Assembly: GCA_018985235.1 (NCBI GenBank)
Contig: JADGIG010000033.1
Location: 1 to 36,538, forward strand
Direction: 5' to 3'
Length of the DNA stretch: 36,538 nt
DNA from: Sanchytrium tribonematis
Lineage: Eukaryota
Shown here in pieces: positions 3,001-35,495 of this stretch. The notes under the pieces were generated by a model that did not search any database, was not told where the DNA came from, and saw only the letters and a list, made by a program, of their open reading frames with translations. Made by a program: the position numbers and the translations under genes. How positions within the stretch are numbered: the first letter of the stretch is position 1; the number at the start of each line of letters is the position of its first letter.

Positions 3001-4408
3001 GGCCATACGATATTTAACAAGGATAAGGCACTTCTGGATTATTGCTTTGCCAACTCATACAAAGCGTGTGATTTTAAAAAAGCGAAAGAAGTTTGCGCTG
3101 AATTGGGTCTATACGATATTGAATCGCAGTTTCCAGATCCTGATGCATTTGTAATCAGGGACAAGCGTGCATTTCTTCCAACTCCAGCAAATTACGTAGA
3201 ACTGACTTTGCAGGGGGTCTTGGATACTTCAGAGTCCAATTTTATTATAAGAGATGCCCACTTAAATTCTCAGAAAGCATTAGAGCTTCGACAGTCATTG
3301 TTGAATTTAGGAAAAAAAGTAATTGTGGAATTTGAAGATTCCTCCGAGATTCCTGCTTTGAGCCCATGCTTTTTTGTTGACCAACCACTTGATTTCAAAA
3401 CAAATCTTCAACAAGTAATTCAACTCTACAAAATATACTTTATCAATGATGAAATTCCACTTATGATGATGCTATGCCTATTCAATACTCTCATGATTTT
3501 TAGAACTAAATTTGCACCCTTTTCATTTTTAAAATCGTACGATTTTGATGACACTGATTTTCAGTTTATTGTAAAGCATGCAAGCAACTTGAAATTGGAT
3601 TTCGAAATATTGCAGCGTGTCGTAGAAACTAGTTACGGATCAAAAATTGACAATGAACTGGATATGCGAATTCTCCAATTGTTAACCTCTCAATATATAT
3701 CACGTTCATTTTACGACCAAATGCCCAAAACATACAAAGATTGCCTCGAATGGAATTCAGATGATTTGTCATTTTGTAAATTATCTGTCTTTCCAAATCT
3801 GTCAGCATCAGCACCTCCCACACCGAGTCCATCAAAATTCACCAGTATCCAAATCAAATACTCGGAAACCGATAATTTATTTATTCAACATATTAAATAC
3901 GAAATGCAAAATGCTATGAATTTTGTAAACAATGACTGCAAACCAAATGAATGGTACACTATTGAAAATGCGACTATATTTCGAGCAAAATATAATGAAT
4001 TAATCAACATGACCACCTTGGCCACCAAAAACAAATTAGATGAGCTCAATTTGAATTTATTAATACGCCCACAAGCAACATTGGAAAGTTTTAGACTTTT
4101 CGCAGCTCATAAAGGTACATTTTTTTCATTTAGATAATATTGAATTTGGTAAATTATTCATTTCTGATATAAAACCAAAACAAACTCACATTGTTGCGAA
4201 ATGTGCTATTCTCATCGGGGACGTTGTGAAGGATACTGTGGTAGAAAGTAATTCTGTTTCGGTCAAATCTTACTATTTATATGTTCATCCATTAACCAAT
4301 CAAGAATTCAATTGTGTTAGTGTTGTTTCAAAAGACAAATTATTGTATACGCTTTATACTCAAAACAGCAATGTCAAATACATGAGACCAACCATTATCA
4401 TTGAATAA
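1..4408 (+). CDS. DYNC2H1: Cytoplasmic dynein-2 (IFT dynein) heavy chain, 5'-partial and highly degenerate; join(<1..4114,4134..4408)
   Basis: Frame is open from base 1: NGERVSL..LFKVQDLNYASPATVSRLGIV is the end of dynein AAA2. The stalk/MTBD sequence LSELRALRQPPKIVQDVLEAV..SWNSMKAFL..SFDSQNVKKSSQAASPLAEWV is dynein-2-like. C-terminal YGSKIDNELDMRIL. A 19-nt intron joins it in frame to the 4226..4408 ORF. Confidence 0.85.
4115..4133 (+). other. 19-nt spliceosomal intron
   Basis: GTACATTTTTTTCATTTAG. Removal gives ..AHK-D-NIEFGK.. and an open frame to 4408, where the stop lies within GAATAAA. Confidence 0.85.
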
Positions 4409-4412
4409 ATGT

Positions 4413-6923
4413 TTATAAAATGCCATTCGTGATTCTTTGGTACTGATCGTACAGAATTGTAAATACGTTTTCAATACTGTTGTCTATAATGCTGTAGACC
4501 TGGTCCTGTAATTTCTCATCAGTCAAATGGACTAAGCAACGCTCTCTTAACGCATCTGTGACGGGGCAATTGGTATTTGTTTGTCTGGAAGTGACACTGC
4601 TTGATCTTGAAGTGGGCCGAGTGGATGCCCTGGTAGATCTTCTGGAGATACGATCTTGAGAGGTTGTTGGTGTGTTGGCATTCAGTAGTGGTGAGCTAGC
4701 TTGTCTATTGTGTTTGGCATCTAGTCCTCGACTTAATTCCGCTGGAACACTACTAGACCGTTGTAATTCTGGAGAAAATCTAGCATCATCAAATATAGGA
4801 GAATTCACTTGTTCAGGGGAATATGGTTCGACGCCGGTAAAACAGGGTAATGGCTCTGAAGCAATTTCCATCATATGAACTAAATCCGTTAGTTTTCGAT
4901 GATGTTTTTTCACAGCTTTAAATCCATGTTGCATTAATTGAGTAAAATCTGTCCAAAGCGATGATCCAAATATTTTAGACCGTTCCAAAAATTCACGTGA
5001 GCTGCTCGAGAGCACTGGTGTGTTGTCTGCTGAAATTGTTGGCGTAGTGACATTGAGTCTATCTTCAGAGCGTCTTAATTCTTTGGGGACGCCCCCGAGT
5101 ATTTCAATATAGTCATGATGTAATTTGAAGGGGGCTTGTTCGAATCCTGTGCCTCTGCTAACAAATCCACCAATTCCTTTTGCACCAGGAATTAAATTGA
5201 AGAAAAAACCAAAGTCAATGTGAATTAACTTGCCAGTAGGTTTATGCAATAAAATGTTGCCATTGTGTCTGTCTTTAATGTTGAACAAATATGTGGCAAT
5301 GCTGTAGCTTACAAGACTCAGCAAAAATTTATAATGCGGGCCACCGATTTGCTTTCCATATAGCGCCTCAAATCCATGTTGAAAAGAACCATATTGCTCT
5401 GTCAATCTGTGCACCGATACAGTGTCGAGGCAGAGTTCTATCATACCATGCTTCCTTTCATTGCCAAAATATTCCTCATCATCATCAATATTTTCAGGGT
5501 GTTGGCTGAGCCAAGCAGGAAGTCTAGCTCTGCCTGAAACTGATAAAATTTCATAAATCGTAAGACCGCTAGCAAGACCACCTTCAAAAAGAGACTCCCC
5601 AACGTGTTCTTCTGCAAAAATTTCTTTAAGTATCTGTAAAAGCTGCAAAGCAAATTTTTCCTGTCTTAGATCTCCTGGTTTGTGAAGCATTGGTATAATA
5701 TGAAAGGAATTGATGCTAGAATATGGAGATTCTAATGCAAGTTCGTTCAAATAATCAGAGAATGTACCTTTGTGTTTCCTATCTTTTGGTATCTCGCTCA
5801 AATCAGCATAGCTGTCAAAACTGAGGCCTTTCCATTGCTCTTTCCATTTTTTAGTAGTGATTTTGAGATTTTCGACTATTTTTGCTTGATATTCTTTTTT
5901 TGATTCTCTGTACAAATGTGAGGCTGTATTGATTTGGATCATCATATCAGAAAGCGAAGGAATATGCGGGTTATTTTCTAAAACAGTATTTCTAATTTTT
6001 TGGTAATAGTCTAAGTCTTCTATAGCAACACATTCATAATAAACAATATAAGGTCTTTCATGCGCAGAAGACATAAATTCACTGGAAGGCGTGCAAGATA
6101 CGATAGAATAAACATCAGAAGCTTTTTCTGAGACATTCGGTGAATTATATAATGTTTCTGTACCTTTGCATTTTAAATAATCAAAGCATTTTCTGTGGGT
6201 TTTCACTGAAAATGGGGAAGCCAGGCATTTCATGTCAAGACCATATTTTAAGTAATATAGCTGCATATCAAGAACATCCATCATTCTGGGTATATTAGAA
6301 AAAAAAGATAATGAATTAAAAACGGAATCAGAATAGTGGAGTATCCTTACATAAAATTCACTTCTCGCTAGATTTTTTGAGCTGGATTCAGTGCTGGTTG
6401 TGTATAGTTTATATTTCTGTTCCATTTGTTTGTAATTTGCAATAAAAGTGATCTTATTTTCAAACAAGCTTGGGAAATTATAAGATTTTTGAACATCTGA
6501 TGGGCACATCATTAAAAATGGTAGCATACAATACAAATCTATAGTTCTCTTGCAATTATTCATTGGGTATAAATGTGTATTAAGCAACAATGCCATATTT
6601 TGATGAAAATCCGTTAATGGTATTATTTTAGCCATTTCCTTCCAGGTGAGTTGACGAAATTGGAGTGCCAACTGGTCTTTTAAAAGAAATAATTGATTAA
6701 TAGCTTTGTATAAAATGTTGTCGAATGAAACCGGAAGTATGGTGAGTTGCAAGCTGAATCGTTCTAATTTTTCCATCGTTATTTGATCAAACTCGTTACT
6801 ATTTTCCGTCTCTAAACGATTATATAGAATATCTACCAATAAAGGCGATGGGTGTTTGTTTATCTGATATAAAAATATAGAAATATCTGCAACATCTAAC
6901 AACTTCAACAAACTCGGTTTCAT
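4413..6923 (-). CDS. PIK1: Phosphatidylinositol 4-kinase, type III beta / Pik1-like
   Basis: S-AHERPY, GDLRQE, IKDRHNGNIL, IHIDFGF and FEQAPFKL motifs; C-terminal YDQYQRITNGIL. Confidence 0.88.
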   Translation of the reverse strand: MKPSLLKLLDVADISIFLYQINKHPSPLLVDILYNRLETENSNEFDQITMEKLERFSLQLTILPVSFDNILYKAINQLFLLKDQLALQFRQLTWKEMAKIIPLTDFHQNMALLLNTHLYPMNNCKRTIDLYCMLPFLMMCPSDVQKSYNFPSLFENKITFIANYKQMEQKYKLYTTSTESSSKNLARSEFYVRILHYSDSVFNSLSFFSNIPRMMDVLDMQLYYLKYGLDMKCLASPFSVKTHRKCFDYLKCKGTETLYNSPNVSEKASDVYSIVSCTPSSEFMSSAHERPYIVYYECVAIEDLDYYQKIRNTVLENNPHIPSLSDMMIQINTASHLYRESKKEYQAKIVENLKITTKKWKEQWKGLSFDSYADLSEIPKDRKHKGTFSDYLNELALESPYSSINSFHIIPMLHKPGDLRQEKFALQLLQILKEIFAEEHVGESLFEGGLASGLTIYEILSVSGRARLPAWLSQHPENIDDDEEYFGNERKHGMIELCLDTVSVHRLTEQYGSFQHGFEALYGKQIGGPHYKFLLSLVSYSIATYLFNIKDRHNGNILLHKPTGKLIHIDFGFFFNLIPGAKGIGGFVSRGTGFEQAPFKLHHDYIEILGGVPKELRRSEDRLNVTTPTISADNTPVLSSSSREFLERSKIFGSSLWTDFTQLMQHGFKAVKKHHRKLTDLVHMMEIASEPLPCFTGVEPYSPEQVNSPIFDDARFSPELQRSSSVPAELSRGLDAKHNRQASSPLLNANTPTTSQDRISRRSTRASTRPTSRSSSVTSRQTNTNCPVTDALRERCLVHLTDEKLQDQVYSIIDNSIENVFTILYDQYQRITNGIL

Positions 6924-7001
6924 AAAATTTTATTTTGACGATTGCAAAAATAATTTCATGCTAATATGTAATACTCAAAGTTTTATTCAACAAAGATTTG
7001 G

Positions 7002-7352: not shown

Positions 7353-7364
7353 TTTTTATTAGGA

Positions 7365-8049: not shown

Positions 8050-8058
8050 CACGTGTTT
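8050..8058 (+). promoter_or_regulatory. E-box CACGTGTTT upstream of RPL37
   Basis: Starts 54 nt before the ATG; the same 9-mer recurs at a similar distance before RPS24 and the RRM gene. Confidence 0.6.
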
Positions 8059-8953: not shown

Positions 8954-8998
8954 ACCCAGTAAATTGGTAAATATCCGTACCCATATTCAATTTATTTT

Positions 8999-10850
8999 TC
9001 AGTTTAGATTATCGGTGCTCGATATTCTTTCAAACTTGTTTCGATTATATTTTCTATCTGTTTTTAATTTTGGTCGCTTTCCACATTTTACGGAAACTCC
9101 AAACAAAGCCAACAAGAAAATGATGCAAATAATTATAACCCAGATTGTTACTGAACTAAGTCAGAAATAAATACTTATTAAGTGTGACATTTGTACCTAT
9201 TGGAACTTTAAATCCACTCAAAGTGACTGAAGCAATATTTTTGGAATCACTGAAACTTTGGGATTGAGTGCTCCGCAGCTGGGTCGCATCCAAATATCTT
9301 GAAGACTGGTAGCTTGTAGAGACTGATGACGTAGATTCTTCTATTATCCAAAAATGGAATTTTTCAATCGAGTCTGTCTTAGAGTTATTGAACATACTGA
9401 GAGTAGAATTAGTATAATTGAAATGAGTCGTATTGGTGGCGGTATGATTGGAAGCAATATTATAATTTGTTCGCGTGAACCTGGTAGACGTCGAATTATA
9501 AGAGTTGGTACGATTCATAGCTACAGACCGAGTAGAAATTGTGGTCGAGGTGAATAACGGTCTAAAAGTCGTAGTAGCAGCATACTTCAAGCATATTTTT
9601 GAATATGTTATCGATTCATTAATGCAAGTTAGGCTCCAAATGCCACTTGTCAAATTAGAAAGCTTGGTGATGCCACCACAATTTAAATAGTCCAATTTCA
9701 CAGTGTAAAGTGGGCCTTTGGGATTACTTGTGCATATTGCAGGGAGTGTGGAATTTTTACCGATTACGATTGATTTGGGTATACCAGAATCTTGACAAAG
9801 TTCAGTCAAAATCTCATTTGTAGAAGGAGAAAATGCAAAATCCAAGGTTTTACCACTGAGTTGTGCTCTCAGGTTTTTAACAGATTTCAAGGAAAGGTTT
9901 CTGAACCTTAAATTGTTAGCACAACTCACAATATCTGAGACTGAATTCACAACCAAATTGTCCATGATGAGATAAGCGAATGTATGTGTGCAATCGACTT
10001 TTCCTTTGTTCAATAAATCCGAATTACCAGACAAGTCAATCTTTGCATTCAAAAATATTGGAGAAGCCTCAAATGTGTCTAATAAGTTGTATGATAAGTC
10101 AAGAACATCAGATCTATCTCCCAAATAAAACCAAATGGGTACATGCGTCAAATAATTATGTCCAGCGTATAATTCTAAGAGTTGTGGAAATACATTGTCA
10201 TCCAATGAAGTGAATTTGTTCTTGCTAACATCTAAAATCTGTAAATAAGACGGCTGAATATTGGTTGGAAATTCAGTTAATTGATTATTTGTCAAATTTA
10301 GTTTTTTAAGACCGAATACATTAATAAGTTTGTCAATAACCCCAAATGTAATATTGACACTATTTGATATTTCTAATTCATTCAAGGAAAGTTTATTATT
10401 TTGAAAAACACAACTAGGAATTCTTGTATTCACCAAATTGTCAATTCTTAAAACTTTTAGCTTAGAATAATTTGCAGAAGAACATAGAGAAACCAGAAAT
10501 GAATAATAGTTGTATCCATTGACATTTCTCAATGTTAAACTTGTGAGCTTTGAGTTGATGTTCAGCCAATTCTGTGAGATTTGCGAATTGACAAATTCCA
10601 AATCCAGAGTTGTGACCTGGGTAAAACTAATAAGAAAGGTAGGATCGTAATAGGAACAGTCTAGCACTTTTACCTTCACTTGAGTGATTTGGCTGTATGG
10701 AACATTTATGCATGTTTTATTCCAAGGAGAAATGTCCAGCCTAGTCGGTATATCCGATCCAGATCTGGCCACTATAGTTAAGGAGTCGGATGTATAATAG
10801 ATATTTGGACTATCATTTGGAATTTGTTGAGAACAAAAAAGGTGGCTCAT
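8999..10850 (-). CDS. Leucine-rich-repeat type I membrane protein; join(10850..9175,9155..8999), 610 aa
   Basis: LRRs (LKKLNLTNNQLTEFP, LQILDVSKNKFTSL, LDLSYNLL) and an S/T/N-rich stalk. Exon 2 adds a TM helix (VTIWVIIICIIFLLALFGVSV) and a basic tail. Confidence 0.82.
9156..9174 (-). other. 19-nt spliceosomal intron
   Basis: GTATTTATTTCTGACTTAG with branch motif CTGAC; removal restores the TM exon. Confidence 0.88.
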
Positions 10851-11186
10851 GTTATAGAAGAAAAATCAAAAAAAATATATAAATGCTCAGGGTTAAAAAG
10901 CTAAAAATCATGTATCAATTTTTATAACCTCATCTTTGCAATAAATATACTATATATCGAGGGATGCCGCACAACCATTATAAGCCTCATTGAGTTCGAT
11001 AGCTACCCACTTTAATCCGACCAAATAAATTTGGCTATTGCACTTTCTGCTTGTGGATATGAGGACTTTCCCTGGCAAATGGACATTCTGTCAGTAAGTG
11101 GCGCCAAAAATATCATGATTGAGCAACATAAGGGGAAATCAAAATTTGTCAGTTACAGTTCAAAACACTCGTCTGGTTGGTCAGCC

Positions 11187-11647: not shown

Positions 11648-13490
11648 TTAGTCCTGAATACTTCTGAATCTTTCTTCAATATCTTTACCTAATTTTGCAT
11701 ACTTGGCAAGGACTTTCTCTTTTCCATCCTTAGGATTTTCGAATTTCATACTTGAGAGTGCGTAGAGTAAATCACTAGTTTTTTCCCTAATTTTAGCCCA
11801 AGTTAATTGTCCCTGAGAAGTTTCAACAGCTTTGACTGCCTCTGTGTAGAAACCCATCATATTTTTGAGCATTCCAACGGTTTTGTAGAATGGACAAAAT
11901 CGATCGTATTCTGAAAATCCGTTTTGTTGCAAAAAATCGTCTTTTAAAATTTTCGAAATTTCCAAAGTGATTTTGTCGGTTTCTCCAAGTGCAGATTTAC
12001 CAACAAGTTGAACGATTTCAGCTAAATCTTCTTCAAGTTGCAATATTTCTTTGCACTGAGTTCTTAATGCAACAAATTCTGGTTCAGTCTTTTCATAGTA
12101 TGGGTCTAAAGCCTTCAAATATTTTGAATAAGAAAGAGACCAATTAACAGATGGGAAATGCTTTCTTTGAGCCAATTTTTTATCTAAGCCCCAAAACACC
12201 TGAACAATTCCCAATGTAGCGGAAGTAACAGGGTCAGAAAAATCACCACCAGGAGGAGAAACGGCACCTACAATACTTACACTTCCTTGTCTTCGTGGAT
12301 TTCCGAGACAAACGACTTTGCCAGCTCGTTCATAAAAAGATGCGAGTCGGGCTCCCAAATATGCAGGATAACCCGAATCGGCAGGCATCTCAGCTAGACG
12401 ACCTGAAAGTTCTCGCAAAGCCTCCGCCCATCGTGAAGTTGAGTCAGCCATCATCGCTACATCTTTTCCTTGATCCCTAAAATATTCACTTAATGTGATA
12501 CCAGTGTAAATAGATGCCTCTCTTGCAGCCACAGGCATATTACTCGTGTTGGCCACCAATGTGGTACGCTGCATAATACTTTCCATTTTTGTTTGTCCAT
12601 TGACATTCACTTCTGCAGTAAGTTCAGGGAAATCCATTAAAACTTCAGCCATTTCATTTCCACGTTCACCACAACCTACATATATAATGCAATCACTGTT
12701 GGAATACTTAGATAACGATTGAGAAATAACAGTTTTCCCACACCCGAAAGCTCCAGGAATTGCAGTTGTCCCACCTTGAACACAAGGAAAGAGAGCATCT
12801 AAAACTCTTTGACCTGTAAGTAATGGATTATCAGCACTCAATTTCTCAGTAACGGGTCTGGGTGAACGAACTGGCCAAGAGTGATACATTTTGAAGCTAG
12901 CTTTCTTATTTTCAAATTCAACTTCAAGAACCTACATGAATAAAATCTACGATATCTTCAAGTGTATAATTGCCTTGTGGTGCAATGTACGTTATTTTTC
13001 CATAATTACGTGGAGGTAGCATGATGTTGTGAGTGTGAACAAAGGCATTTTCATAGACACTTCCAAAAATATCGCCACCCGTAATTAAGTCTCCAATTTT
13101 TAAATTCTTGTTAGGAACGAATTCCCATTGTTTTTTCTTATCCAAAGCATGTGTATCAATTCCTCTAGGTATATAAATGCTCTGACTATATTGCTGAATA
13201 GCTTGTAAGGGTCTTTGTATACCGTCATATATATTATCCATCAAGCCTGGTCCTAATTCCACTGATAAAGGTTTACCTGTCTTGAGAACAGGATCTCCGA
13301 CAGTTAGACCGCTGGTTTCTTCGTAGACCTGAATTGTTGCCCTGTCCTTGTCGATTTTGATAACTTCTCCGACTAGTTCGTCAGTACCAACTCTTGCTAG
13401 TTCATACATCGCACTACCAGTCATATTTTCGGCCACAACGACTGGACCCGACACACTGTAAATATAACCATATTGAGATTCTTTTGTCAT
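11648..13490 (-). CDS. VMA1: V-type ATPase catalytic subunit A; join(13490..12951,12931..11648), 607 aa, no intein
   Basis: [20 protein letters not shown], Walker [40 protein letters not shown]; the spliced junction reads YTLEDI|VLEVEF. Confidence 0.97.
12932..12950 (-). other. 19-nt spliceosomal intron
   Basis: GTAGATTTTATTCATGTAG; removal gives the conserved V-ATPase A motif YTLEDIVLEVEF. Confidence 0.95.
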
Positions 13491-13789
13491 TTCAGCAAAC
13501 TCCCAAGTTTTGAAAAATATACACTTTATTAAATTTCATTCTTAAATTTTCAAGGCATATCAATTTTCATATAGTTTTATAACAATGTTGTGGTGAGTCG
13601 TATCATAAATTTATTAAGTATAGATTTTGAGGTCGAGCCAGTCATTTTATAAAATGGTGCATTTGTTTAAAGAAGTGCTCAATAAACCTTTTGGAGAACA
13701 AGATTCAGCAACTACGCTAATACGTACACGTATACAACGCCCTTAAATCATCTAATTGATATGGGGCCGGGTATTTGTATTATTTTTTT

Positions 13790-15297: not shown

Positions 15298-16933
15298 TTA
15301 ACATGAGGCGGCTTGAACATCACTAGATGTTTGTGTGTAAGTAATAGAAACTAATCCACCGTTTTGGCGAGTCTTTTTTTGGGCCAAAAACAATGATTGT
15401 GGGTCCGGATCTGTGAAAGATTCAACCCAGCCCGTGGGCTGTTGAAATGGGCAAGGTGGTTTCGCCCCAGTTGCAATCAACAAAGTGTTACCTATCGCAT
15501 AATTTTGCGCACCCGGAGGTTTTTGAACCATCACGCCGCCCATGGTTTGGCTATTGTCAGCACTACTCACAAATTTACTTCCCCAAACGATGCAGTGAGC
15601 GCAGGACCATCCATGAGAAGTTCCGAAATTTCCACGATTGTAAAGTCCAAGGGATGGATAATTTCCAGGGATGGTTGATACTTTGTTAATGAAAAATACG
15701 CATGGTATCAAATAAAACTCCATTAGTCCATCCTCGATGGGATTCATCCACACCAGATGGATTAATAGAAGTGCAATCAAAAAACACAATCCCGCTAGCC
15801 GTGCTCATTCCGTTAATTACATATTGATGTCTTCCACCCCGAGCAAAATTGTGAGCGAAAAAGATTAATTGAGAGTTTCTTTCAACCGCAAAATTGTAAA
15901 AATTTTCAGTTGTATCTTGACCAATGGGATCTATTGCCGCACAGGATGTTACGCTGACTCTGGTTGAAGTATAGACTGCCACGCCTGAACGAACAAATCC
16001 AGATATAGTCAATTTATAAAGCCAAACGTCCTCAGATCCATCGACAACGACTCCATTTTGCGAATGGTTTTGGTCTTGAGGATCCATCACAAATGACTGA
16101 ATTTGAATACGCATATCTCTGAGAATAACGTTTTCTGTCACCAAGGTCTCATCAAATAAAATAACGTAAGGCTGGGATATTGAAGAATTCATTTTATCAA
16201 AAGTGGGAGAATCTAAAAATAAAGTCTTTGTTGCTATGTCAACATATATAATTCTTCTCAAATAATTCACACTAGGATAGCCGAGTCCCCAAGGAGCGTC
16301 AAAATAAGTGTCGCCTCTGTTGACCGAATCCAACCAAGATTGAGTTGCGGGATATACAATCAAAATAGATTGCCCTACAGAAAAGCGTGAGATATCATCT
16401 ACCTGAAATTTGAAGGCAGACATTCCTACTAATGGGGTTGTGATCTTTGTCTGAAATGAATTTCCGGCGTACCAGTTGACTTTGCTAGATCCAATGTAAA
16501 ATACAGAATACATTGAACTGTCTCCGTTAGCTCTGATGACAGTTGATGCCGAAGGATCATCACCGTTTCCCTCACCTTTAACGATGACACCATCAACATT
16601 TATACTAATTTGAGTAGCGATATTCCAAATTCCCTTTTTTAGTAAAATCGAGCCTCGAAATCCATTTGTACCAACAGGATAATTCACCATGTCATTGATA
16701 GCGCCTTGAATCAAACTTGATGCATCACCAGATGGAGGATAAAGTACTTTAACAGTACTGGCCGTCACAGGCAATGAATAATTTCCGTGTTTAAATCCAA
16801 CATACGAAAAATGAGGAATTCGATTATTTTCTGCATCATAGGTGTATGTTAAGTATTTATATTTACCTGAAGTAGTCCAGTAGACTCTTTGAGAGGAAGT
16901 CAAAGCTTCCAAAGCACAAAACAGTAAAAACAT
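15298..16933 (-). CDS. Secreted pectin-lyase-like beta-helix protein of bacterial type; join(16933..15700,15680..15298), 538 aa
   Basis: YTYDAENNRIPHFSYVG, GDASSLIQGAIN, NGFRGSILLKKG, ESHRGWTNGVLFD, then after the intron LGLYNRGNFGTSHGWS and PQSLFLAQ; hydrophobic N-terminus. Confidence 0.72.
15681..15699 (-). other. 19-nt spliceosomal intron
   Basis: GTATTTTTCATTAACAAAG (branch motif TTAAC, AAG acceptor); joins the two ORFs as LFDTM-L-STIPG. Confidence 0.88.
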
Positions 16934-20778: not shown

Positions 20779-21723
20779 ATGGATTACGCGCTCGGTGCTT
20801 TTGTGGGTGTGATGGTCGGAGATGCCGCGGGAGCGACTCTCGAATTTATGTCAGGTTTAAGATCTGAGGAAGAGGTTGATAATGCAATGAAAATGCCAGG
20901 AGGTGGAGTGATGAAAATGGGACCTGGGCAAATAACAGATGACTCTGAACTATCGCTATGTTTAGCATATGGTCTACAAAAAGGTTTTGAAATTGATGCA
21001 ATAGCTAAAAATTACCATGAATGGTACAAATCTTGTCCTCCAGATATTGGAAATACTTGCCGTAACGCTTTTTCCAGTAAAAATTCTGCTAAAATGTATC
21101 GAAAATCCAAAGATTTAAATGGAAATTCTCAGGCGAATGGTGCATTAATGAGGCTTGTACCTCTTGCCATTTTTACGAGAAATATGTCTGAGAATGTTAT
21201 TGTAGAAAAGGCTAAAATGGATTGCGAATTGTCGCACCCTAATCCAATAACAGTAGATTGCAACTGTGTGTATTCTCTAGCTCTTGCGTACCTACTGAAA
21301 AATTCTGGCGATTCTAAGGGTTGCATCAGCTATATTGAAAAATGCTTTTTGAAATATAAATTTAATGCCGAAGTTTATCAATGGTTTAAGTCCTCTACCA
21401 CTGACAATGAAATCGACTGCCTAACAAATATTGGGCACGTAAAACACGCATTTATGCTGTCTTTTTATTGTTTGCGTAAGCACTTATCATATGAAGCTGC
21501 AATCAAAGATGTTTTAAAGCGTGGTGGTGACACAGACACCAACGCTGCCATATGTGGTGGAATTCTTGGTTGTTTGCATGGAATCCAGTCCATCCCTGAC
21601 TTTATGAAAAGTCCTGTCCTAAGCTTTGACTCCTCAAAAAATAGTTGGTACAAAAGACCTAAAAAATACAATGCATCAAATTACGAATCGCTGATTACAA
21701 GTATTTATAATAAAACTTTATAA
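20779..21723 (+). CDS. ADP-ribosylglycohydrolase family protein
   Basis: GDAAGATLEF, GQITDDSEL, PPDIGNT, NGALMR, GGDTDTNAAICG. Confidence 0.92.
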   Translation: MDYALGAFVGVMVGDAAGATLEFMSGLRSEEEVDNAMKMPGGGVMKMGPGQITDDSELSLCLAYGLQKGFEIDAIAKNYHEWYKSCPPDIGNTCRNAFSSKNSAKMYRKSKDLNGNSQANGALMRLVPLAIFTRNMSENVIVEKAKMDCELSHPNPITVDCNCVYSLALAYLLKNSGDSKGCISYIEKCFLKYKFNAEVYQWFKSSTTDNEIDCLTNIGHVKHAFMLSFYCLRKHLSYEAAIKDVLKRGGDTDTNAAICGGILGCLHGIQSIPDFMKSPVLSFDSSKNSWYKRPKKYNASNYESLITSIYNKTL

Positions 21724-21730
21724 CATTTAC

Positions 21731-22525
21731 TCAGTTCCACATTCCCATATAACCAAAGAGTGCAGCCCATGTAGACTTTGGTTGAGCGAAAATGTTACTT
21801 ACAGTTGTGGTAGCATCGCTCAAGAAGCTTTCATTTCTTGAGTATTCTGATGCAATTGATAGTTGGCTACTTGCTGGAGATATTTTTAGTGTTTTATGAA
21901 TATCTGCAACAGTTTTTTTCTTTGGTGTTGTAGCAGCTTCGGATTCATTTTCCGATTCAACAATTTTATCACTTTCGATAACAGAATCAATTGTTTTGGC
22001 TGGAGTACTTGGTTTTGTTTTCTTTTCAACTTTTGCTTTCTTTGGAGTTCGTTTCTCTTTTTGAGGAAGTTCATCCGCAACAGAATCAACGTCGTTCTCC
22101 TTGTCTTCGTCCACAGTTTTAAGCTCACTATCTCCGACTTCAACTCTCTTTTTAGCTTTTTTAACGACTTTTTTAGAAGTTGTAGCTTTTCTTTTAGCAC
22201 CCTGATATATATCAAATTCTTCCTTTTCATCTTTCGTTTCATTTAAGACAACATCTAAAGGAAAAGTGTCATCCAACGCTTGTTGAAGTGCTACCAAATC
22301 TTTCCCTGCAGTAGTATAAATATCAATTTCTTTCTCGTCAAAAGCTTTTAAATCATTCACAACGGCTTTTCTAAATGTTTGAAAGAAAAATACATAGTTT
22401 TGACCTTTTGCTAATTTGATGTCTTTAGTAGGTTCAATAACAGCTGCCGGAGCATATCTAATTTTACCACCAGCTAAAGTTTGTTTTGCAAAAACTCGCT
22501 GACCTTTTTTAAAATTGGAGATCAT
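21731..22525 (-). CDS. PWWP-like domain protein with Lys/Glu-rich low-complexity tail
   Basis: FKKGQRVFAK..YAPAAVI..YVFFF..LKAF..ALQQA matches the PWWP layout; start 22525 (or 22564). Confidence 0.6.
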   Translation of the reverse strand: MISNFKKGQRVFAKQTLAGGKIRYAPAAVIEPTKDIKLAKGQNYVFFFQTFRKAVVNDLKAFDEKEIDIYTTAGKDLVALQQALDDTFPLDVVLNETKDEKEEFDIYQGAKRKATTSKKVVKKAKKRVEVGDSELKTVDEDKENDVDSVADELPQKEKRTPKKAKVEKKTKPSTPAKTIDSVIESDKIVESENESEAATTPKKKTVADIHKTLKISPASSQLSIASEYSRNESFLSDATTTVSNIFAQPKSTWAALFGYMGMWN

Positions 22526-22676: not shown

Positions 22677-23144
22677 ATGGGAAGGAAATCCAAAGCAAGA
22701 AAGCTCGTAAGACAAACCCGTAGACTACAAGATGCGCATCACAAACACCCAAAGCCAGTTGATAAACTTCTTAAGGAAAGATGGTCTAAAGGCGAGTATA
22801 GACAACAATTACAAAATCTTGGGTTAGAAATGAATGTTAATGATGTAAAAATGGCAGAGCTAAACAATGCAATTACTGCACTGGAGCCAATTGAGCGTAC
22901 CGATTCCGAATTTATACAGAGTTTATCAAATTTGGAAGGTCGAACCAGTTATTTTTATTTGAGCGAAAATGAATGTGTGACTCTGAATGCCTTAATAAAA
23001 AAACATGGTAGAAACGTTGATTCCATGTTTAAGGATATAGATCTCAATGTCATGCAGTGGAGCACAGGCCAATTAAGAAAAAAAATTAACAAACTTGAGA
23101 AAGAACTTAATTTATTAGAACTAAAGAAACCTAATGTTCAGTAA
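22677..23144 (+). CDS. NOP16: Nucleolar protein 16 (60S biogenesis)
   Basis: W.K....Q.LQNLGL..N.N; LSENE...L..LIKKHG.NVDSMFKDIDLN.MQ.STGQLRKKI. Confidence 0.85.
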   Translation: MGRKSKARKLVRQTRRLQDAHHKHPKPVDKLLKERWSKGEYRQQLQNLGLEMNVNDVKMAELNNAITALEPIERTDSEFIQSLSNLEGRTSYFYLSENECVTLNALIKKHGRNVDSMFKDIDLNVMQWSTGQLRKKINKLEKELNLLELKKPNVQ

Positions 23145-23808
23145 ATATCTCTTCAAAATCCCAAGCTAAGCACAAAAATGAAGTAATAGCTACACATTTT
23201 TCTAGGTAGTTGAAAGCTTTTCTCCAATTGGAAAGAAACAGCCAGGTGAAGGGAACAAATAACAAGGCAAACAGTAGAGCGGTAAAAATCATATTTAAAA
23301 GACTAATTGTAAATTGGACCAACAGCATATAAATAAGAGATCTGGCTGTGAAAGGACTACTACTCAAGAGAAATAAATTAGCAGTAATACTGTTCGAGTA
23401 GCTATGTATCCCACCCACTCGAGGCATTTTTCGGAACTGAGCAGGAAGAGAAAATCCTTCTTCCACATAAATATTCTTGATAATCACTCTATTGATTAAA
23501 AGATCCACAAATGCTAAACATCTCCATGAGTATAAAATCAAAAAGCTAAGAGGAATTCCTATCGGAGGAACAATCATTGTTGCGAATAATACGATGCTGC
23601 ACATTGTCCACGAAAAGCAAAAAGAAGTCCACATCAATCTAAATATAAACTCAAAGGTGAATCGCAGAATTAAAGTACCACAGGTAGGCTCTGTTTTAAA
23701 TGCAATATTTTCAACATCTTGCAAGTAACCTGAAGTTTTTCGTTCTTTCTCTTCTGATTTAAGCGGCACATTCGAACAAATATCGTCGTAAGCTGGAGGA
23801 CTTTCCAT
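23131..23808 (-). CDS. Multi-pass membrane protein with N-terminal PPxY motif
   Basis: MESPPAY followed by about 4 hydrophobic helices; the 3' end overlaps NOP16 by 14 bp. Confidence 0.7.
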   Translation of the reverse strand: MESPPAYDDICSNVPLKSEEKERKTSGYLQDVENIAFKTEPTCGTLILRFTFEFIFRLMWTSFCFSWTMCSIVLFATMIVPPIGIPLSFLILYSWRCLAFVDLLINRVIIKNIYVEEGFSLPAQFRKMPRVGGIHSYSNSITANLFLLSSSPFTARSLIYMLLVQFTISLLNMIFTALLFALLFVPFTWLFLSNWRKAFNYLEKCVAITSFLCLAWDFEEIFTEH

Positions 23809-23864: not shown

Positions 23865-24674
23865 TCATTTGCTCTTTTCAAATTGAATTGCCTTGTTCAT
23901 TAAAGCCTCAGTGTTGACCACGGGTTCATCATCGTCTGCTTCTTTATGACTTGTCATACGAGAATCAAATTGAAATTCTGAAGGAACGTCGTCCCTTTTC
24001 TTTTTCCTTAGGCGATGCTCCAATTGTTCTTGTTGGAATTCTTCATAGTCCCTTTTGTCTCCAACAACAACTTTCTTGTCTTTAGTGAGCACTTCCAACG
24101 AATGCTCAATAAACAACTGCTGCTGCTTTAATGCTTTTTGCTCTTGGATTCGTCTCTGGTTTAATCTTTCCTTCAACTTATGATCAGCTTCATACAATGC
24201 TTCCGCCATTTTCCCAAAATTTTCGTTCATCTTTGTTTCTTTTTTGTGTTGATGTGCCATTCGTTTATCTAAAGGAATAACAAACCCTTGGGGATTTTTG
24301 TAGTTACTCACGCAAGGCGGAATATTCCACTTTTTCAATTCTTCTTTGTTGACTATACTTTTATGATCAATTCGAATCGGTTGCGAAGTATTTGTGGGTA
24401 GTTTTTTAAATTTTCCAAAGGTTTGCAGAGGATCCTTTTTTTCAACAATCATGTGAGTATTCCCATGTGTATCGTTGTAGAATTGAACAGGGTTTTCTTT
24501 CGATTCTTTTTTCATTAATTCATTATTTGGTCTAGATTTATTTGGATTTTCTTCAATCTTTTTTACCTCTTTGGTTTGCAATTTGGAGACATCAATCTTT
24601 TGAGATTTGACAGAAATGTCAATTACTTTAGTAGGTGCTGGCGCAACCGAATTTAAAGTATTTAAAAGATCCAT
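23865..24674 (-). CDS. PRP45: Pre-mRNA splicing factor Prp45/SKIP (SNW1), shortened and divergent
   Basis: KDPL..KF, WNIPPCVSNYKNPQGFVIPLDKR, NENFGKMAEALYEAD, QFDSR, C-terminal IQFEK; ATG at 24674. Confidence 0.92.
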   Translation of the reverse strand: MDLLNTLNSVAPAPTKVIDISVKSQKIDVSKLQTKEVKKIEENPNKSRPNNELMKKESKENPVQFYNDTHGNTHMIVEKKDPLQTFGKFKKLPTNTSQPIRIDHKSIVNKEELKKWNIPPCVSNYKNPQGFVIPLDKRMAHQHKKETKMNENFGKMAEALYEADHKLKERLNQRRIQEQKALKQQQLFIEHSLEVLTKDKKVVVGDKRDYEEFQQEQLEHRLRKKKRDDVPSEFQFDSRMTSHKEADDDEPVVNTEALMNKAIQFEKSK

Positions 24675-24891
24675 TGAAACTAATGAAACGATGGAGAATT
24701 GTCCCACTTATTGTATAGCACAAAATAATTATAAGAGCCACGCCATTTATAGCGCAAAATTATTATAATTTGAAGCATTATTAAACATTGAACGGTATAT
24801 TAAAAGTTGACAGAGCAGCTGGAATTTGATTGGCGAGAATGGCCTTTGATTGGATTGAAAGTTATTAAGAGTCTTAGGGCTCCAACCTGCA

Positions 24892-27735: not shown

Positions 27736-28805
27736 TTAATCTCTTTGTATGCTTGGAAGTTTATCAAATTTGCTTATTTCATTTCTAGAATATTGATGTG
27801 TTTCAGTTTGAGTGACATAAGATCGTTTCTAAATAAACAACTAATTACAATCACATGAGCGTCTGATGAGTTTAATCTTGCTTCTTCTTTTCTTTGCGAA
27901 TATGAAATCAAAAATGAGTGCTTTAAGAGAGTGGAAGCAGTAGGCCTGTGGAGCGGACTGTATATTAGCGATTCCTCAATAAACTTAATACAGTCTTCTG
28001 AAGGCCTTGCAAGAAACAATCTTTTAATCCCGTAGCCAAGACTTTTGGGGAAAGTAAAGGGTAAAGTAAAGGTTTTGCTATGATTGATATCAATCAAGTC
28101 TTGATCTGATGGTGAACCGATTGCTTTGTGAATTAATAAAAGTTGTTCAATAGCGTTTTTACCCGGGAATAAAGGTTTTTTAGTCATCATTTCAAATAAA
28201 ATACAGGACAATCCCCAAATATCCATTTTCTCGTTATAAAGACCAGACGTAAGTAAGTTTTCCGGCGCACGATACCACCTTGTCGCAATGTATTGAGTCA
28301 ATGGTCGCACCTCTGCGGAAATTCGAGCACAGCTACCTAGATCTGCAATTTTTACAATGGTGGCATCGATATTAAGAAGTATGTTTTCAGGTTTTACATC
28401 ACGGTGAAAAAATCCCTTAGAATGTATATATTCCAACCCTTTTAAAGACTGATGTATGATAAATTTTGCTTTCTCCTCGTTAATATATTTTTTAGAAAGA
28501 TACTCGTATAAGTTTATATCCATTAGTTCCAAGTCTAAGCAAAATATACAAGTTAAAGGATCGTAAATCATTCTATGTATTTTAATAATGTTGGGATGAT
28601 CTCCTAGTACTTTAAATATTTGAACTTCGCGTAAATAATCTACGTCTAGAATTGATTTTAGCTTTTTCTTAAATACTTTGAGTGCCACTGGGTTATCATC
28701 CGACATTCTTTTTCCGCGGACAACTTTGCTAAAAGTACCCTCGCCTATGACTCTGTCTATAATATAATAGTTTTTTAATGAATCTATTGTTAATGGAATA
28801 GACAT
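27736..28805 (-). CDS. MOK: MOK/RAGE/LF4-type (RCK family) Ser/Thr kinase; probably join(28805..27849,27828..27736)
   Basis: GEGTFSKV, FHRDVKPENIL, ADLGSC, TQYIATRWYRAPE.LLT.G.Y..KMDIW, PLFPG.N..EQ...IH..IG.P; the spliced tail ends KLPSIQRD* followed by AATAAA. Confidence 0.85.
27829..27848 (-). other. 20-nt spliceosomal intron (probable)
   Basis: GTAATTAGTTGTTTATTTAG fits the consensus (GTA, branch A at -6). It lies in the non-conserved tail, so there is no homology support. Confidence 0.65.
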
Positions 28806-29169
28806 TTTTTTAGAATTACCCTTCAAATCAATACCGTGATGTTTTAAAATCAAGCAAGTCGTGGATGTGTAACTCACACACCTGAGTTGTTGTCCCATTA
28901 CATAAAATTGAATCTTAAGTAATCAAATACAAACATAAGGATTTAATTATTTTCCCAAACGAGGGATTGGAGATTCTCTTCTCAATTATAATAATTTATT
29001 TCTAACGTAAATTAAGAAGCGCAATTGAATTTTTTTTATCATATTAAGCGGTGACTGGAAGTTTTTGTTGCTGCTAAACTTTGAGATTTCGGAATAAAAA
29101 CTTTTACGTGCAAAATATGTTTGTAATTCTCTACTTTGAAAAGATTTGCACAATTTACTCCACAATTTA

Positions 29170-32343: not shown

Positions 32344-32445
32344 TCTTGTACTTAGAACACAGTGGGATACAAGAAATTACAAAATGAAAATCACCAATCA
32401 AGCACAAACGCAAAGAAAATAAATGTGAGTTGCGACTTTCAATCC

Positions 32446-32703
32446 ATGTTTTTTCCTCTAGCGTTCACGGTTCCATTAATGGATCCTACAATGATGAATA
32501 TGAATCCAATGATGCCAGGAGGGCCAACAATGGACCCACTTGCTGGCAATGTTGCAGTCCCACCTCCACCGAGAGAATATGGCGTGCAAGAGAAATGGAA
32601 AAAAAGTTTAATATTCTCAGGTGTTATTGGGGGATCAGCATTGGCACTTTTAAGCATGGTGATGTGTTTTAGGGCAAAAAGTTGCCATCCGAAAAAACCT
32701 TGA
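32446..32703 (+). CDS. Small single-pass membrane protein, Met/Pro-rich
   Basis: MFFPLAFT leader, MMNMNPMMPGGP, TM segment LIFSGVIGGSALALLSMVMCF, AATAAA after the stop. Confidence 0.6.
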   Translation: MFFPLAFTVPLMDPTMMNMNPMMPGGPTMDPLAGNVAVPPPPREYGVQEKWKKSLIFSGVIGGSALALLSMVMCFRAKSCHPKKP

Positions 32704-33052
32704 TGAAATAAATTATATATCTATGATTCAAACCACTGAAAAAAAATACATATGATGATCTGCGATGCTGGGAACGCTTATAATTAATTAAAAACTTAGA
32801 CTCAGTGATTTACATCTACAGATTTTTTGTCAATCGAAAAGTGTAAATTACTAGACTAAAGGATACTCAGATGCTGTACCTTAATGCGGTTTTCAAAAGA
32901 GAATACGCTTCCTATATTAATACCTCTAATAATGTTCTAAAAATTATCATGCAATTATTATTTCGCCTCATTTCACCGATTGGTGTATTCCGATGATCTT
33001 GTAGCATAGATCGTGCGGGTGCGATAAATATCAGACTTTTACCGTAAACAAT

Positions 33053-33487
33053 ATGTCCAAGATAGGAAATCCTCTTGAAATTCATAATGTTATTGCTTTG
33101 ATATTATGTAAATATCACAAATGTGATGATTCCGAAGAAAAAGTGGCCGACGAGCTCAAAATTATATCCAGAAATACCAGAGCTGATTATGAAGCAATAT
33201 TAATGGCGGTCAATTACATATATAAACTAGTAGTTTTAAACGATCATAAATTAGATTGGAAGCCAAATGTTGTGTTTGCTGTCGCGCTGTGGATTAGTTG
33301 CGAAATTCGTGATCAAATTCAAATTGAAGCTCAGAAATGGCACGAGAAAACACAAATTCCTATGAGAGATCTCAAGCTAGTAGAAACTGTTTTCAAAGGT
33401 TCGCTTGGACACCAGCTATTTCTTACTGCCGCTGAATTTGATCAATTCAAATCCGAATTTTCGAAGCGCATATCCAGCTTACAATAA
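33053..33487 (+). CDS. Pho80/PCL-type cyclin-like protein, divergent
   Basis: AILMAVNYIYKL, VFAVALWISCEI.D, W...T.IP..DL...E..F...L...LFLT..EF. Confidence 0.7.
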   Translation: MSKIGNPLEIHNVIALILCKYHKCDDSEEKVADELKIISRNTRADYEAILMAVNYIYKLVVLNDHKLDWKPNVVFAVALWISCEIRDQIQIEAQKWHEKTQIPMRDLKLVETVFKGSLGHQLFLTAAEFDQFKSEFSKRISSLQ

Positions 33488-33496
33488 CTATTAATT

Positions 33497-35495
33497 TTAT
33501 TTACTGCTAATTTCTAATAAATTTTCTCTAGATTGACTCAAATCCTTCAGTCTTGAGAACCGTCTTTTTGTTGGAGATTTCATTGCAGTAGCTCCACTAT
33601 CCACTGTATTTGATTCGTATTGTGACTCTTCTTCAAGTTGTTCTCTCTTTTGCTTTTTTGCCTCTCTTCTTTTCCTTTCGTTCTTGTTGCGAATATGAAA
33701 CCCACAAGAGAATAAAATTATTAGAAATACAATAACGCCGATAATGACATACAATTGATTGTTTGCCAGGGTTCCACGAAATTTGTCAACTAAATCAGTT
33801 TTGATTACATGAACTAGAGTACTCACAAGATCCCATTTTACATTTTCCAAAACCACCACCACAAATAGATCCATCAATCAAAAAACTGTCAAATTGAGCA
33901 CAACCTCCAGCTTGTTTACAAGTAAGCTTACAGTCCGAATCTCCAGTGACTATGCCAGTGCAGGATCCTGATGAGTCAGGATAAGCATCTGTACATTGTT
34001 TATCACTTGACGTGCAATATTTGGAAGCACAATGACCATCAAAGTTAATTGTAGGGTCATGACATGATGTGCCATCTGCTACAAAAACATTATTTGGACA
34101 CTTTGCGTGTATGCCATCACAAACTTCTTCAAAGTCGCAAACGCTTTCCTTTTTCCTACAAATCTGAGATTTCGATACAACTTGACAACCTGAACAACAA
34201 CTTTCATTTTTATCACTACATGTGGACCCTTTTGTTAGTTTGCAATCTTTAGTGCAACAAGTATCTGTTGAACAAAGGTCTCCGCAATCACATTCTTCAC
34301 CCGCTTCTAAAATTCCATTACCACATACATTTTCACTAAATGCGATTAGAGCAGAGCTTGAATTTCGAATACAGCTAAAATTTGGAATATTATTACAAAC
34401 TGTAGAGATTGAACCTGAAGCGAAATTATCTGTTGCGACATTTTGATTTGGATTCATTATATATTGACCTCTACAATCACAAGAATCACACTTATTGCAA
34501 TTGTCACAAGTCCCAAGGCAATCATGTATGGCTCCCAAATTGTGCGCAATTTCATGAGCCATAACTTTCCAACTTTCTTTCTGTCTTGTAGCTATCGAAA
34601 CACCACTGAAATAATTATTGCCTGTTGCAACATCTGCAGTTTTATGGCAAACAGCAGAGGGCCAGGCTAAACCAACTTTTCCATCACTTGGACAAGTGCT
34701 GTATAAATGCCACAAGTCAATATCATCTTTTCGTCCACCTCTCCATTTTGAAAAATCACTAATTCGTTGCATCATCGAATAATTTCCTGCACAGGGAATG
34801 TTCCATCGGTCAAACTCGCCATCCTTATCAGCTTCACCTTTCCATCCGTTGTATTTCTGACTGCAACTCGAACGAATGTCTAACACCGTTAAAATCAATT
34901 GTAAATTAAAAGAGCTTTTGTAAACCGAATTAGTCCTGGCCAATACACCTAATATTTCACGCATCACAGCCTCTATATCCTCGTTAGATTGTTGTACTAC
35001 GGAGCAGTCTACCATTATACCCAAATTTATATATTTTGTTTCCTTGGGACAAGGCGTTGCGTCAGTTGCCAATTCCAATTGTTTCGGACCAAGCAAGTTT
35101 TCAGAAATATCATGCAGACTAGAATTAGTCGCACAGACCAAATTATCCGAGGCAGCATTTTCTAAAATTTCAACGTCGCCGCTATCAATGACTAGTCTTC
35201 CATTTTTTTGAAGTAATTTGTAATTTGTGTGATTAAATGTGAATTCAGCGGAAATAGAAGGAAATTGGTCACAGCTATTTTCTTTTTTCACAAAGGCATG
35301 TCCGCTGCCGGTCAAGCCAGCATATGAAATGGAAGTGGTAAAAAATCTAGATTCAATGCTCATTGGATATGGTTCAAAATGCATTTTGATTATTGATTCA
35401 TCAAGCAATTTAAAAGCATAATCAAATGTGCTTGACGGATATATACATGGAATTGATTTTTGAAAAGGAATTAAGATTTGATATAACAAACTCAT
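33497..35495 (-). CDS. ADAM metalloprotease-disintegrin, type I membrane; join(35495..33809,33789..33497), 659 aa
   Basis: HEIAHNLGAIHD zinc motif, Met-turn YIMNP, disintegrin CGNGILEAGEECDCG, Cys-rich domain; exon 2 encodes TM LYVIIGVIVFLIILFSC and a tail. Confidence 0.93.
33790..33808 (-). other. 19-nt spliceosomal intron
   Basis: GTAATCAAAACTGATTTAG with branch motif CTGAT; joins the ectodomain to the TM exon as CEYSS-S-F-DKFRG. Confidence 0.9.

What the first reader, a model, noticed from the sequence alone, without database searches (positions are those of the whole stretch)
4115..33808. Fixed-geometry 19-nt spliceosomal introns in a fungal-type genome
Seen in sequence: six introns, namely 4115-4133(+) GTACATTTTTTTCATTTAG; 9156-9174(-) GTATTTATTTCTGACTTAG; 12932-12950(-) GTAGATTTTATTCATGTAG; 15681-15699(-) GTATTTTTCATTAACAAAG; 33790-33808(-) GTAATCAAAACTGATTTAG; and the 20-nt 27829-27848(-) GTAATTAGTTGTTTATTTAG. 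The five 19-mers each repair a broken ORF; in V-ATPase A this gives the conserved YTLEDI|VLEVEF. No longer intron was needed anywhere in the window. Established: introns this small are known from chlorarachniophyte nucleomorphs (18-21 nt) and heterotrich ciliates such as Stentor (15-16 nt), and are shorter than typical microsporidian introns (about 23 nt and up). Inference: an independently evolved minimal, ruler-like splicing system in an opisthokont. I am not aware of it being described for a fungus but cannot search the literature. Gene predictors with a minimum intron length of 20 nt or more would mis-annotate these genes.
Basis: partly seen in the sequence, partly recalled or inferred. 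Interest (0 to 1): 0.93.

Follow-up and report, generated by a model that had tools for sequence, protein, structure and literature searches.

The report
19-20-base introns in sanchytrid fungi
In an alga-parasitic sanchytrid fungus, five genes are each broken by a 19-base insert with intron signals, and relatives break at the same sites in two of these genes; these are likely the shortest spliceosome-removed introns yet seen in fungi, and public protein sets hold such genes as fragments.

Summary
All six stretches are present as stated. The five 19-mers each mend a broken gene and share GTA...YTNAY-NN-AG, with the branch-like A always sixth from the 3' end. Two are backed by homologues. Spliced V-ATPase A aligns without a gap to an intronless Amoeboradix gromovi protein (556 of 607 identical), and a pectate-lyase-like gene joins in register with an intronless relative and bacterial homologues. 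Six unnamed relatives break at the same two codons; three of their read-through tails fix the length at 19, 19 and 20 nt, which argues strongly against assembly error. The organism is a sanchytrid (100/100 with A. gromovi). So the size is 19-20 nt; what is fixed is the branch-to-AG distance. No RNA run was available, so splicing is inferred. Ten literature searches found no spliceosomal introns this short in fungi (Encephalitozoon 22-76 nt, myxozoan median 22); Stentor, Mikrocytos and nucleomorphs are the parallels. The sanchytrid proteomes were called without an intron model. The scan noted 26-30-nt Rozella introns before, nothing on sanchytrids. New variant of a known kind.

The parts
12932..12950 (-). 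19-nt intron, phase 0, in V-ATPase subunit A (gene 13490..11648, 607 aa spliced)
   Evidence: Best of 63 repairs, no gap against 60 of 60 homologues; 556/607 identical with 0 gaps to intronless A. gromovi P0133; relatives P0141 (19 nt), P0261 (20 nt) and P0260 break at the same codon
15681..15699 (-). 19-nt intron, phase 1, in a pectate-lyase-like beta-helix gene of likely bacterial origin (16933..15298, 538 aa spliced)
   Evidence: Ungapped junction against intronless P0125; best of 29 repairs with a bacteria-only profile; relatives P0122, P0123, P0124 break at the same codon, P0123 fixed at 19 nt
33790..33808 (-). 19-nt intron, phase 1, in an ADAM-type metalloprotease-disintegrin gene (35495..33497, 659 aa spliced)
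   Evidence: Joins reprolysin and disintegrin domains to a hydrophobic segment and tail (KD19 2.9 against 0.7 unspliced); exon-2 frame stop-free with positive codon score; no homologue test
9156..9174 (-). 19-nt intron, phase 2, in a leucine-rich-repeat membrane protein gene (10850..8998, 610 aa spliced)
   Evidence: Only GT-AG repair of 40 nt or less; adds a transmembrane-like segment (KD19 3.1 against 1.1); codon score of exon 2 is negative (-5.1); no homologue test
4115..4133 (+). 19-nt intron, phase 1, near the 3' end of a degenerate dynein-2 heavy chain gene (window start..4408)
   Evidence: Only GT-AG repair of 40 nt or less, though six GC-AG ones exist; exon 2 has 90 stop-free codons, codon score +17.4; gene identity; exon 2 has no database match
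27829..27848 (-). 20-nt candidate intron, phase 0, in the tail of a protein kinase gene (28898..27736)
   Evidence: Same motif; not needed to keep a frame open; codon usage favours the spliced frame. Likely but unproven
13600..13618 (+). 19-nt motif match in the spacer upstream of the RRM gene; chance match or 5' UTR intron
   Evidence: about one chance match per length is expected; joins no reading frame
23865..24674 (-). SKIP/Prp45 spliceosomal protein gene, 269 aa against 379 (yeast) and 536 (human)
   Evidence: shows that this genome encodes a spliceosome component, in shortened form

Best explanation
The window belongs to a sanchytrid fungus in which five genes are interrupted by 19-base GT-AG inserts that are likely removed from pre-mRNA by the major (U2) spliceosome, predicted to branch at the A six bases from the 3' end. 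SHOWN: the inserts, their shared GTA...YTNAY-NN-AG form, exact restoration of two conserved proteins, and the same breaks in relatives at 19 or 20 nt. INFERRED: U1 and then U6 pair with the GTA donor, U2 pairs with YTNAY at positions 11-15 (12-16 in 20-mers), and step 1 makes a lariat loop of 14-15 nt. Step 2 takes the AG five bases beyond the branch A by proximity, with no polypyrimidine tract. Length varies only between donor and branch site (7 or 8 nt between GTA and YTNAY), so the intron is little more than its two RNA-pairing sites, squeezed by genome compaction against a steric floor. Neither 19 nor 20 is a multiple of three, so retention always shifts the frame and would expose unspliced messages to decay. 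The genome is intron-poor (5-6 introns in 30 genes). At least the intron in the bacterial-type gene was likely gained inside this lineage.
For: Junction restored without a gap against A. gromovi P0133 (556/607) and 60 of 60 other homologues. Second junction best of 29 with a bacteria-only profile and ungapped against P0125. Six relatives break at the same two codons (P0141, P0260, P0261; P0122, P0123, P0124). Tails re-enter exon 2 out of frame and fix L = 19, 20, 19 for P0141, P0261, P0123, reached by 0 of 300, 0 of 60 and 0 of 300 shuffled tails. A pattern written down beforehand (note) was met by P0141; 8 of 2560 random GT-start 21-mers meet it. A at -6 is forced by the amino acids in P0141 and P0122 and allowed in P0261 and P0123; A at +3 is forced in 3 of 3 phase-1 relatives. 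The same 3' geometry is described for Stentor (branch A at 10 of 15 and 11 of 16) and Yarrowia lipolytica (2 nt between TACTAAC and AG). Spliceosome parts: SKIP in the window; SF3B1, U2AF small subunit, DBR1 and SNRNP40 in the A. gromovi annotation table.
Against: No transcript was seen, so removal, branch use and efficiency are untested. Three of the five 19-mers (dynein, LRR, ADAM) lack homologue support: dynein exon 2 matched nothing, a representative search with the dynein C-terminal region gave only 4 weak hits, and LRR exon 2 has a negative codon score. Lengths in relatives come from back-translated protein tails, not DNA. P0122 (20 nt, needs its stop to be TAG; 11 nt also fits), P0124 and P0260 are only compatible, not fixed. 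P0261 and P0260 do not meet the 19-nt prediction; P0261 fits 20 nt. One 36.5-kb window cannot give a genome-wide length distribution. The names PRPF8 and SLU7 had no hit in the supplement, which was cut when stored.
Confidence: 0.9

Rival explanations
1. The breaks are assembly or amplification errors (single-base indels) in intronless genes.
For: 9 of 55 single-base-deletion and 8 of 55 two-base-insertion models near the V-ATPase junction are stop-free. Published sanchytrid genomes came from whole-genome amplification.
Against: Such models add 6-7 residues where 60 of 60 homologues and A. gromovi have no gap. Six independent relatives break at the same codons with different intervening letters.
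Confidence: 0.01
2. The inserts are real but skipped at translation (ribosomal bypass or programmed frameshift) instead of being spliced.
For: No RNA seen. All inserts shift the frame.
Against: GTA, YTNAY and AG are spliceosomal signals. Lengths of 19 and 20 at one site need different shifts. No matched take-off and landing codons are visible at the junctions, and no stable structure surrounds them.
Confidence: 0.03
3. The inserts are cut out by a non-spliceosomal nuclease (Ire1-type), like the 19-20-nt HAC1 introns of Candida and filamentous fungi.
For: The size equals that of fungal HAC1 introns (19 nt in C. albicans, 20 nt in Aspergillus).
Against: HAC1 introns have CTGCAG at both borders within strong structure. 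None of the six has this; folding z-scores run from -0.4 to +2.2; the host genes are not bZIP factors.
Confidence: 0.01
4. The introns are real but the size range of the genome is wider: this window samples the mode of a short-tailed distribution (as in myxozoans or Rozella), and some of the three unsupported genes use longer introns from upstream donors.
For: Longer motif-matching repairs exist (dynein 190; ADAM 52, 130, 142 nt). Only 30 genes were sampled. Relatives already show two lengths.
Against: Where homologues allow a test, the longer repairs lose. All 9 lengths that could be fixed or read directly are 19 or 20. Spacers are too short to hide long introns (median 87 nt).
Confidence: 0.25

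Closest known systems
15-16-nt introns of heterotrich ciliates (Stentor coeruleus; PMC9505925, passages read)
   Same: GUA donor, AG acceptor, U-rich middle, branch A fixed six bases from the 3' end, length varying only 5' of the branch
   Different: 4 nt longer (predicted loop 14-15 against 10-11 nt); clearer YTNAY motif; never a multiple of three here; a fungus, not an alveolate
16-17-nt introns of Mikrocytos mackini (PMC10245619, section 7 and passages) and 18-21-nt introns of chlorarachniophyte nucleomorphs (as summarised there)
   Same: two adjacent lengths, conserved sequence, parasite or reduced genome, mostly non-3n in Mikrocytos
   Different: different supergroup; sanchytrids keep mitochondria, thousands of genes and, in A. 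gromovi, U2AF, SF3B1 and DBR1
Microsporidian introns (Encephalitozoon cuniculi, 22-76 nt; PMC3629993 and PMC6349667, passages)
   Same: holomycotan parasite, GT-AG, strong branch motif, intron-poor
   Different: shorter here; microsporidian introns sit at the 5' ends of ribosomal-protein genes, whereas the 3 ribosomal-protein genes of this window have none and 5 of 6 inserts lie in the last quarter of their genes; separate lineage
Myxobolid myxozoan and dicyemid introns (median 22 bp; PMC13644364, parts 1-2 of 3 read)
   Same: opisthokont parasites, donor reduced to GTa, no polypyrimidine tract
   Different: broad length range there, with branch-like As that move away from the AG as length grows; here the A is fixed at -6
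Yarrowia lipolytica introns with fixed branch-AG distance (PMC2483917, passages)
   Same: fungus; 2 nt between branch motif and AG; no polypyrimidine tract
   Different: Yarrowia introns are long and use TACTAAC; here the motif is a looser YTNAY and the whole intron is 19-20 nt
Ire1-spliced HAC1 introns (19-20 nt in fungi; PMC2606855, passages)
   Same: length and frame shift
   Different: non-spliceosomal, CTGCAG borders, structured, one gene; none of these features here

Membership tests
U2-type spliceosomal intron | GT...AG ends | tested here: met
   6 of 6; GT and AG are compatible with relatives' tails at the best lengths
U2-type spliceosomal intron | branch-site motif with an A near the 3' end | tested here: met
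   YTNAY with A at -6 in 6 of 6; forced in 2 and allowed in 2 of 4 relatives examined. Sequence only
U2-type spliceosomal intron | exact removal restores a conserved protein | tested here: met
   2 of 2 testable genes; 3 further 19-mers and the 20-mer had no usable homologue
U2-type spliceosomal intron | removed from RNA as a lariat | not testable with these tools
   no RNA run listed
U2-type spliceosomal intron | the organism has a spliceosome (snRNAs and core proteins) | tested here: inconclusive
   SKIP in the window; SF3B1, U2AF small subunit, DBR1, SNRNP40 in A. gromovi (file cut); no whole genome held; no snRNA in the window
U12-type intron | RTATCCTT donor (consensus recalled) | tested here: not met
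   none of the six donors has ATCC after RT
Ire1/HAC1-type intron | CTGCAG borders in stable stem-loops of a bZIP mRNA | tested here: not met
Fixed-size tiny introns (Stentor, Mikrocytos type) | nearly all introns of the genome within 1-2 lengths | tested here: inconclusive
   9 of 9 readable lengths are 19 or 20 (6 in the window, 3 in relatives), but only one window and two sites in relatives were seen
Sanchytriomycota | clade with a named sanchytrid | tested here: met
   V-ATPase A 91.6% identical to A. gromovi; clade 100/100; next named fungi 82% or less on exon 2
Sanchytriomycota | compact genome, about 35% G+C | tested here: met
   35.4%, 90% gene span; published values 34.6-36.3%
Sanchytriomycota | sister to Blastocladiomycota; amoeboid zoospore with long kinetosome | tested here: inconclusive
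   The single-gene tree put the long sanchytrid branch next to Piptocephalis (89/89, not starred); best named hits by score were blastoclads; morphology not testable

The most novel reading that the evidence does not exclude
A whole fungal phylum splices only 19-20-nt introns, the shortest genome-wide size in opisthokonts, reached independently of microsporidia and with a spliceosome that still has U2AF, SF3B1 and DBR1. It still gains and loses such introns at minimal size: one entered a gene taken from bacteria, one was cleanly lost in Amoeboradix gromovi. They favour the 3' ends of genes, the reverse of other intron-poor fungi.
Probability: 0.45. Interest if true: 0.9.

Novelty: new variant of a known kind. 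Interest (0 to 1): 0.8.

Why it matters
It adds an independent origin of near-minimal, fixed-geometry introns, apparently the first among fungi below 22 nt. Convergence with Stentor and Yarrowia on a branch A six bases from the end points to a physical floor of the spliceosome. Sanchytrids sit among fungi whose spliceosomes are well known, so changes that permit a 14-nt lariat can be traced by comparison. There is also a practical cost. Sanchytrid proteomes were called with TransDecoder on contigs, and the protein collection holds this window's genes as separate fragments. If the window is typical, about one gene in five or six is split or truncated (extrapolation), which bears on published gene-loss counts for the phylum.

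Tried and rejected
No whole genome is held, so there is no genome-wide histogram or snRNA search. No RNA holder was listed, so no reads were laid; this is no evidence either way. A metagenome scan found no sanchytrid-like DNA among the 80 loci kept of 537 (best 81%). A genome scan with P0134 gave 8 loci, none in the sanchytrid clade among those placed (L081, L082). A first genome scan for the beta-helix gene found nothing; an alignment query then found 274, of which 80 were kept and 72 full-length ones used. The dynein C-terminus gave 4 weak hits that I did not use and no PDB or Pfam match for exon 2, so that junction rests on frame, motif and codon usage. An ancestral position for the V-ATPase intron was not found: 82 of 88 loci are contiguous across it, including all 25 that show introns elsewhere in the gene; 4 do not cover it, 1 starts there, and 1 (L028) has a small gap that I did not examine. 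Among 121 short fragments, non-sanchytrid breaks fall one or two codons upstream, not at the site, so sliding of an old intron is not excluded. In-frame 24-nt motif matches in TCTP and PI4K were not called introns: TCTP already spans its Pfam model in 155 residues; PI4K was not tested. RNA structure around the junctions is no better than shuffles. Earlier scan notes hold nothing on this genome or on sanchytrids.
Full report
OBSERVATION. The window is 35.4% G+C with no N and reads in the standard code. It holds 30 gene models covering 90% of its length, with a median spacer of 87 nt. Five genes are broken: a degenerate dynein-2 heavy chain, an LRR protein, V-ATPase subunit A, a beta-helix protein and an ADAM protease. 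In each, the upstream frame stops 4-8 codons after a GTA, and removing 19 nt to an AG opens 51-427 further codons. Among GT-AG repairs of 10-40 nt, 19 is the only length common to all five. Aligned at the 3' end, all five and the 20-mer read GTA, 7 or 8 bases, YTNAY, two bases, AG. Of 226 GT..AG 19-mers in the window 6 have this form, and 5 of them are the gene-mending ones; chance gives about 1 per length. The motif came from these five, so I looked for independent tests.

HOMOLOGUE TESTS. For V-ATPase A, the 19-nt removal is the best of 63 in-frame candidates and leaves no gap against 60 of 60 full-length homologues. The 90% cluster of exon 2 contains a 607-residue protein named Amoeboradix gromovi (P0133). 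The spliced window protein is also 607 residues and aligns to it at 556 identities with no gap. P0133 is a complete ORF called on a genomic contig (header, method), so A. gromovi likely lacks the intron. For the beta-helix gene, an intronless unnamed relative (P0125) gives an ungapped junction, and a profile of 72 bacterial homologues ranks the 19-nt removal first of 29 by 31 bits. The other three 19-mers have weaker support. Splicing adds a transmembrane-like segment to the LRR and ADAM proteins (KD19 3.1 and 2.9 against 1.1 and 0.7). Exon-2 codon scores are +17.4 (dynein), +6.0 (ADAM) and -5.1 (LRR). No homologue covered these junctions. The 20-mer in the kinase is not needed for an open frame; codon usage favours the spliced tail (1% of 393 controls).

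RELATIVES BREAK AT THE SAME SITES. The protein collection holds unspliced ORFs of unnamed relatives, whose tails run through the intron. In the beta-helix gene, P0122, P0123 and P0124 (66-70% identical) all diverge at the window's codon and begin their tails with Cys, as T followed by GT requires; the next residue forces A at +3 in all three. P0123's tail re-enters exon 2 out of frame and fixes 19 nt. P0124 stops at the same codon as the window. P0122 fits 20 nt if its stop is TAG (11 nt also fits). Before looking at V-ATPase relatives I wrote down the tail expected of a 19-nt phase-0 intron with this motif. P0141 (87% identical) meets it; 8 of 2560 random GT-start stretches do. Its two cluster members do not: P0261 fits 20 nt, with 37 residues of exon 2 recovered, and P0260 stops where a 20-mer's branch motif would lie. 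Shuffled tails reached the observed scores in 0 of 300 (P0141), 0 of 60 (P0261) and 0 of 300 (P0123). P0001, P0002 and P0134 start at or just inside exon 2. These lengths are inferred from protein, not read from DNA. They show that the break is inherited, that its inner letters vary, and that the length is 19 or 20.

ORGANISM. The window, A. gromovi and three unnamed sequences form a clade at 100/100 (45 rows). Base content fits the published sanchytrid values. The tree did not recover the published sister relation to Blastocladiomycota: the long branch sat by Piptocephalis without strong support. I place the window in Sanchytriomycota, distinct from the A. gromovi record.

MECHANISM. Most likely these are U2-type introns. 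The donor GTA would pair with U1 and then U6, YTNAY with U2, giving a 14-15-nt lariat, and the AG five bases beyond the branch A would be taken by proximity (inferred from established spliceosome chemistry). Length varies only 5' of the branch. Stentor shows the same: branch A at 10 of 15 and 11 of 16 (PMC9505925, passages). Yarrowia lipolytica has the same two bases between motif and AG in long introns (PMC2483917, passages). The window encodes a SKIP/Prp45 of 269 residues, and the A. gromovi table lists SF3B1, the U2AF small subunit, DBR1 and SNRNP40 (the file was cut when stored and one supplement could not be read). No RNA run was listed, so splicing, branch use and efficiency are untested. 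An Ire1-type mechanism matches in size (PMC2606855, passages) but not in borders or structure.

HISTORY. In the V-ATPase tree A. gromovi lies between the window and the intron-bearing relatives (99/87 and 98/88). This suggests one precise loss, or two gains; pairing exon-1 with exon-2 records rests on equal contig lengths. No other eukaryote examined has an intron at this exact site: 0 of 25 intron-bearing loci, while fragments from other groups break one or two codons upstream. The beta-helix gene and its four relatives form a clade (100) among bacterial homologues, with intronless P0125 as sister to the four intron-bearing ones (99) (quick tree, 36 of the 72 bacterial domains). Atlas look-alikes are 92-100% bacterial. 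A transfer from bacteria followed by intron gain is likely, but distant eukaryotic homologues were not excluded and the tree is unrooted. Five of the six inserts lie in the last quarter of their coding region and the three ribosomal-protein genes have none, unlike Encephalitozoon (PMC6349667, passages). This is a post hoc observation on six cases.

NOVELTY. Ten searches of the open-access library found no paper on sanchytrid introns and no fungal spliceosomal intron class below 22 nt. The sanchytrid genome paper (PMC8371127; passages and a supplement search) has the word intron only in a reference title, has no hit for 'spliceosom', and called proteins with TransDecoder on contigs. PMC10459994 likewise has it only in a reference. 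Known parallels are Stentor 15-16, Mikrocytos 16-17 and nucleomorphs 18-21 nt (PMC10245619, section 7 and passages), Encephalitozoon 22-76 nt (PMC3629993, passages) and myxozoans with a median of 22 bp (PMC13644364, parts 1-2 of 3). Subscription journals, theses and bioRxiv supplements were not searchable and could hold a prior note. The scan's own notes mention 26-30-nt Rozella introns (unchecked) and nothing on sanchytrids.

VERDICT. Observation confirmed; interpretation supported, with the size corrected to 19-20 nt and the fixed element identified as the branch-to-AG distance. Real spliceosomal introns 0.9; whole genome confined to 19-20 nt about 0.7; new variant of a known kind; interest 0.8.

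Noticed in passing
window 10968-11126 (-): RNase MRP RNA match (Rfam RF00030, E 0.001, 25.6 bits, below the gathering score of 50), only 159 nt against a 266-position model, between the LRR and RPS24 genes.
   Followed up: no
window 1-4408 (+): Dynein-2 heavy chain with a well-kept stalk but motor domains eroded and shortened: about 350 residues between the stretches that match human 2287-2321 and 3089-3399, where human has about 770. Fits a lineage with a non-motile pseudocilium; it may be a dead motor.
   Followed up: partly
window 23865-24674 (-): SKIP/Prp45 of 269 aa, about half the human length, lacking much of the N-terminal part; a candidate for spliceosome streamlining.
   Followed up: partly
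window 15298-16933 (-): Pectate-lyase-like beta-helix gene with a hydrophobic N-terminus whose homologues found are bacterial apart from four unnamed close relatives; likely a horizontal acquisition, possibly for attacking the algal wall.
   Followed up: partly
window 9156-9174 and 33790-33808 (-): In both the LRR and the ADAM gene the intron sits just before the transmembrane-like segment, so retention would give a soluble form. Untested idea.
   Followed up: no
window 13600-13618 (+) and 24795-24815 (+): Motif matches of 19 and 21 nt in spacers upstream of the RRM and subtilase genes; chance or 5' UTR introns.
   Followed up: partly
window 4408-4413, 22677-23808, 21723-21731: Convergent genes 4-9 nt apart or overlapping by 14 nt, implying overlapping 3' UTRs.
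   Followed up: no
L081 1-5051: A contig in a bacterial MAG carries an intronless eukaryotic V-ATPase A (81% to P0134) that falls among early-branching fungi and their relatives, outside the sanchytrid clade; likely a contaminant.
   Followed up: partly
window 11651-12931 (-): A 3-residue insertion in V-ATPase A shared with A. gromovi and the unnamed relatives and absent from the other fungal proteins printed; a possible marker for sanchytrids.
   Followed up: no
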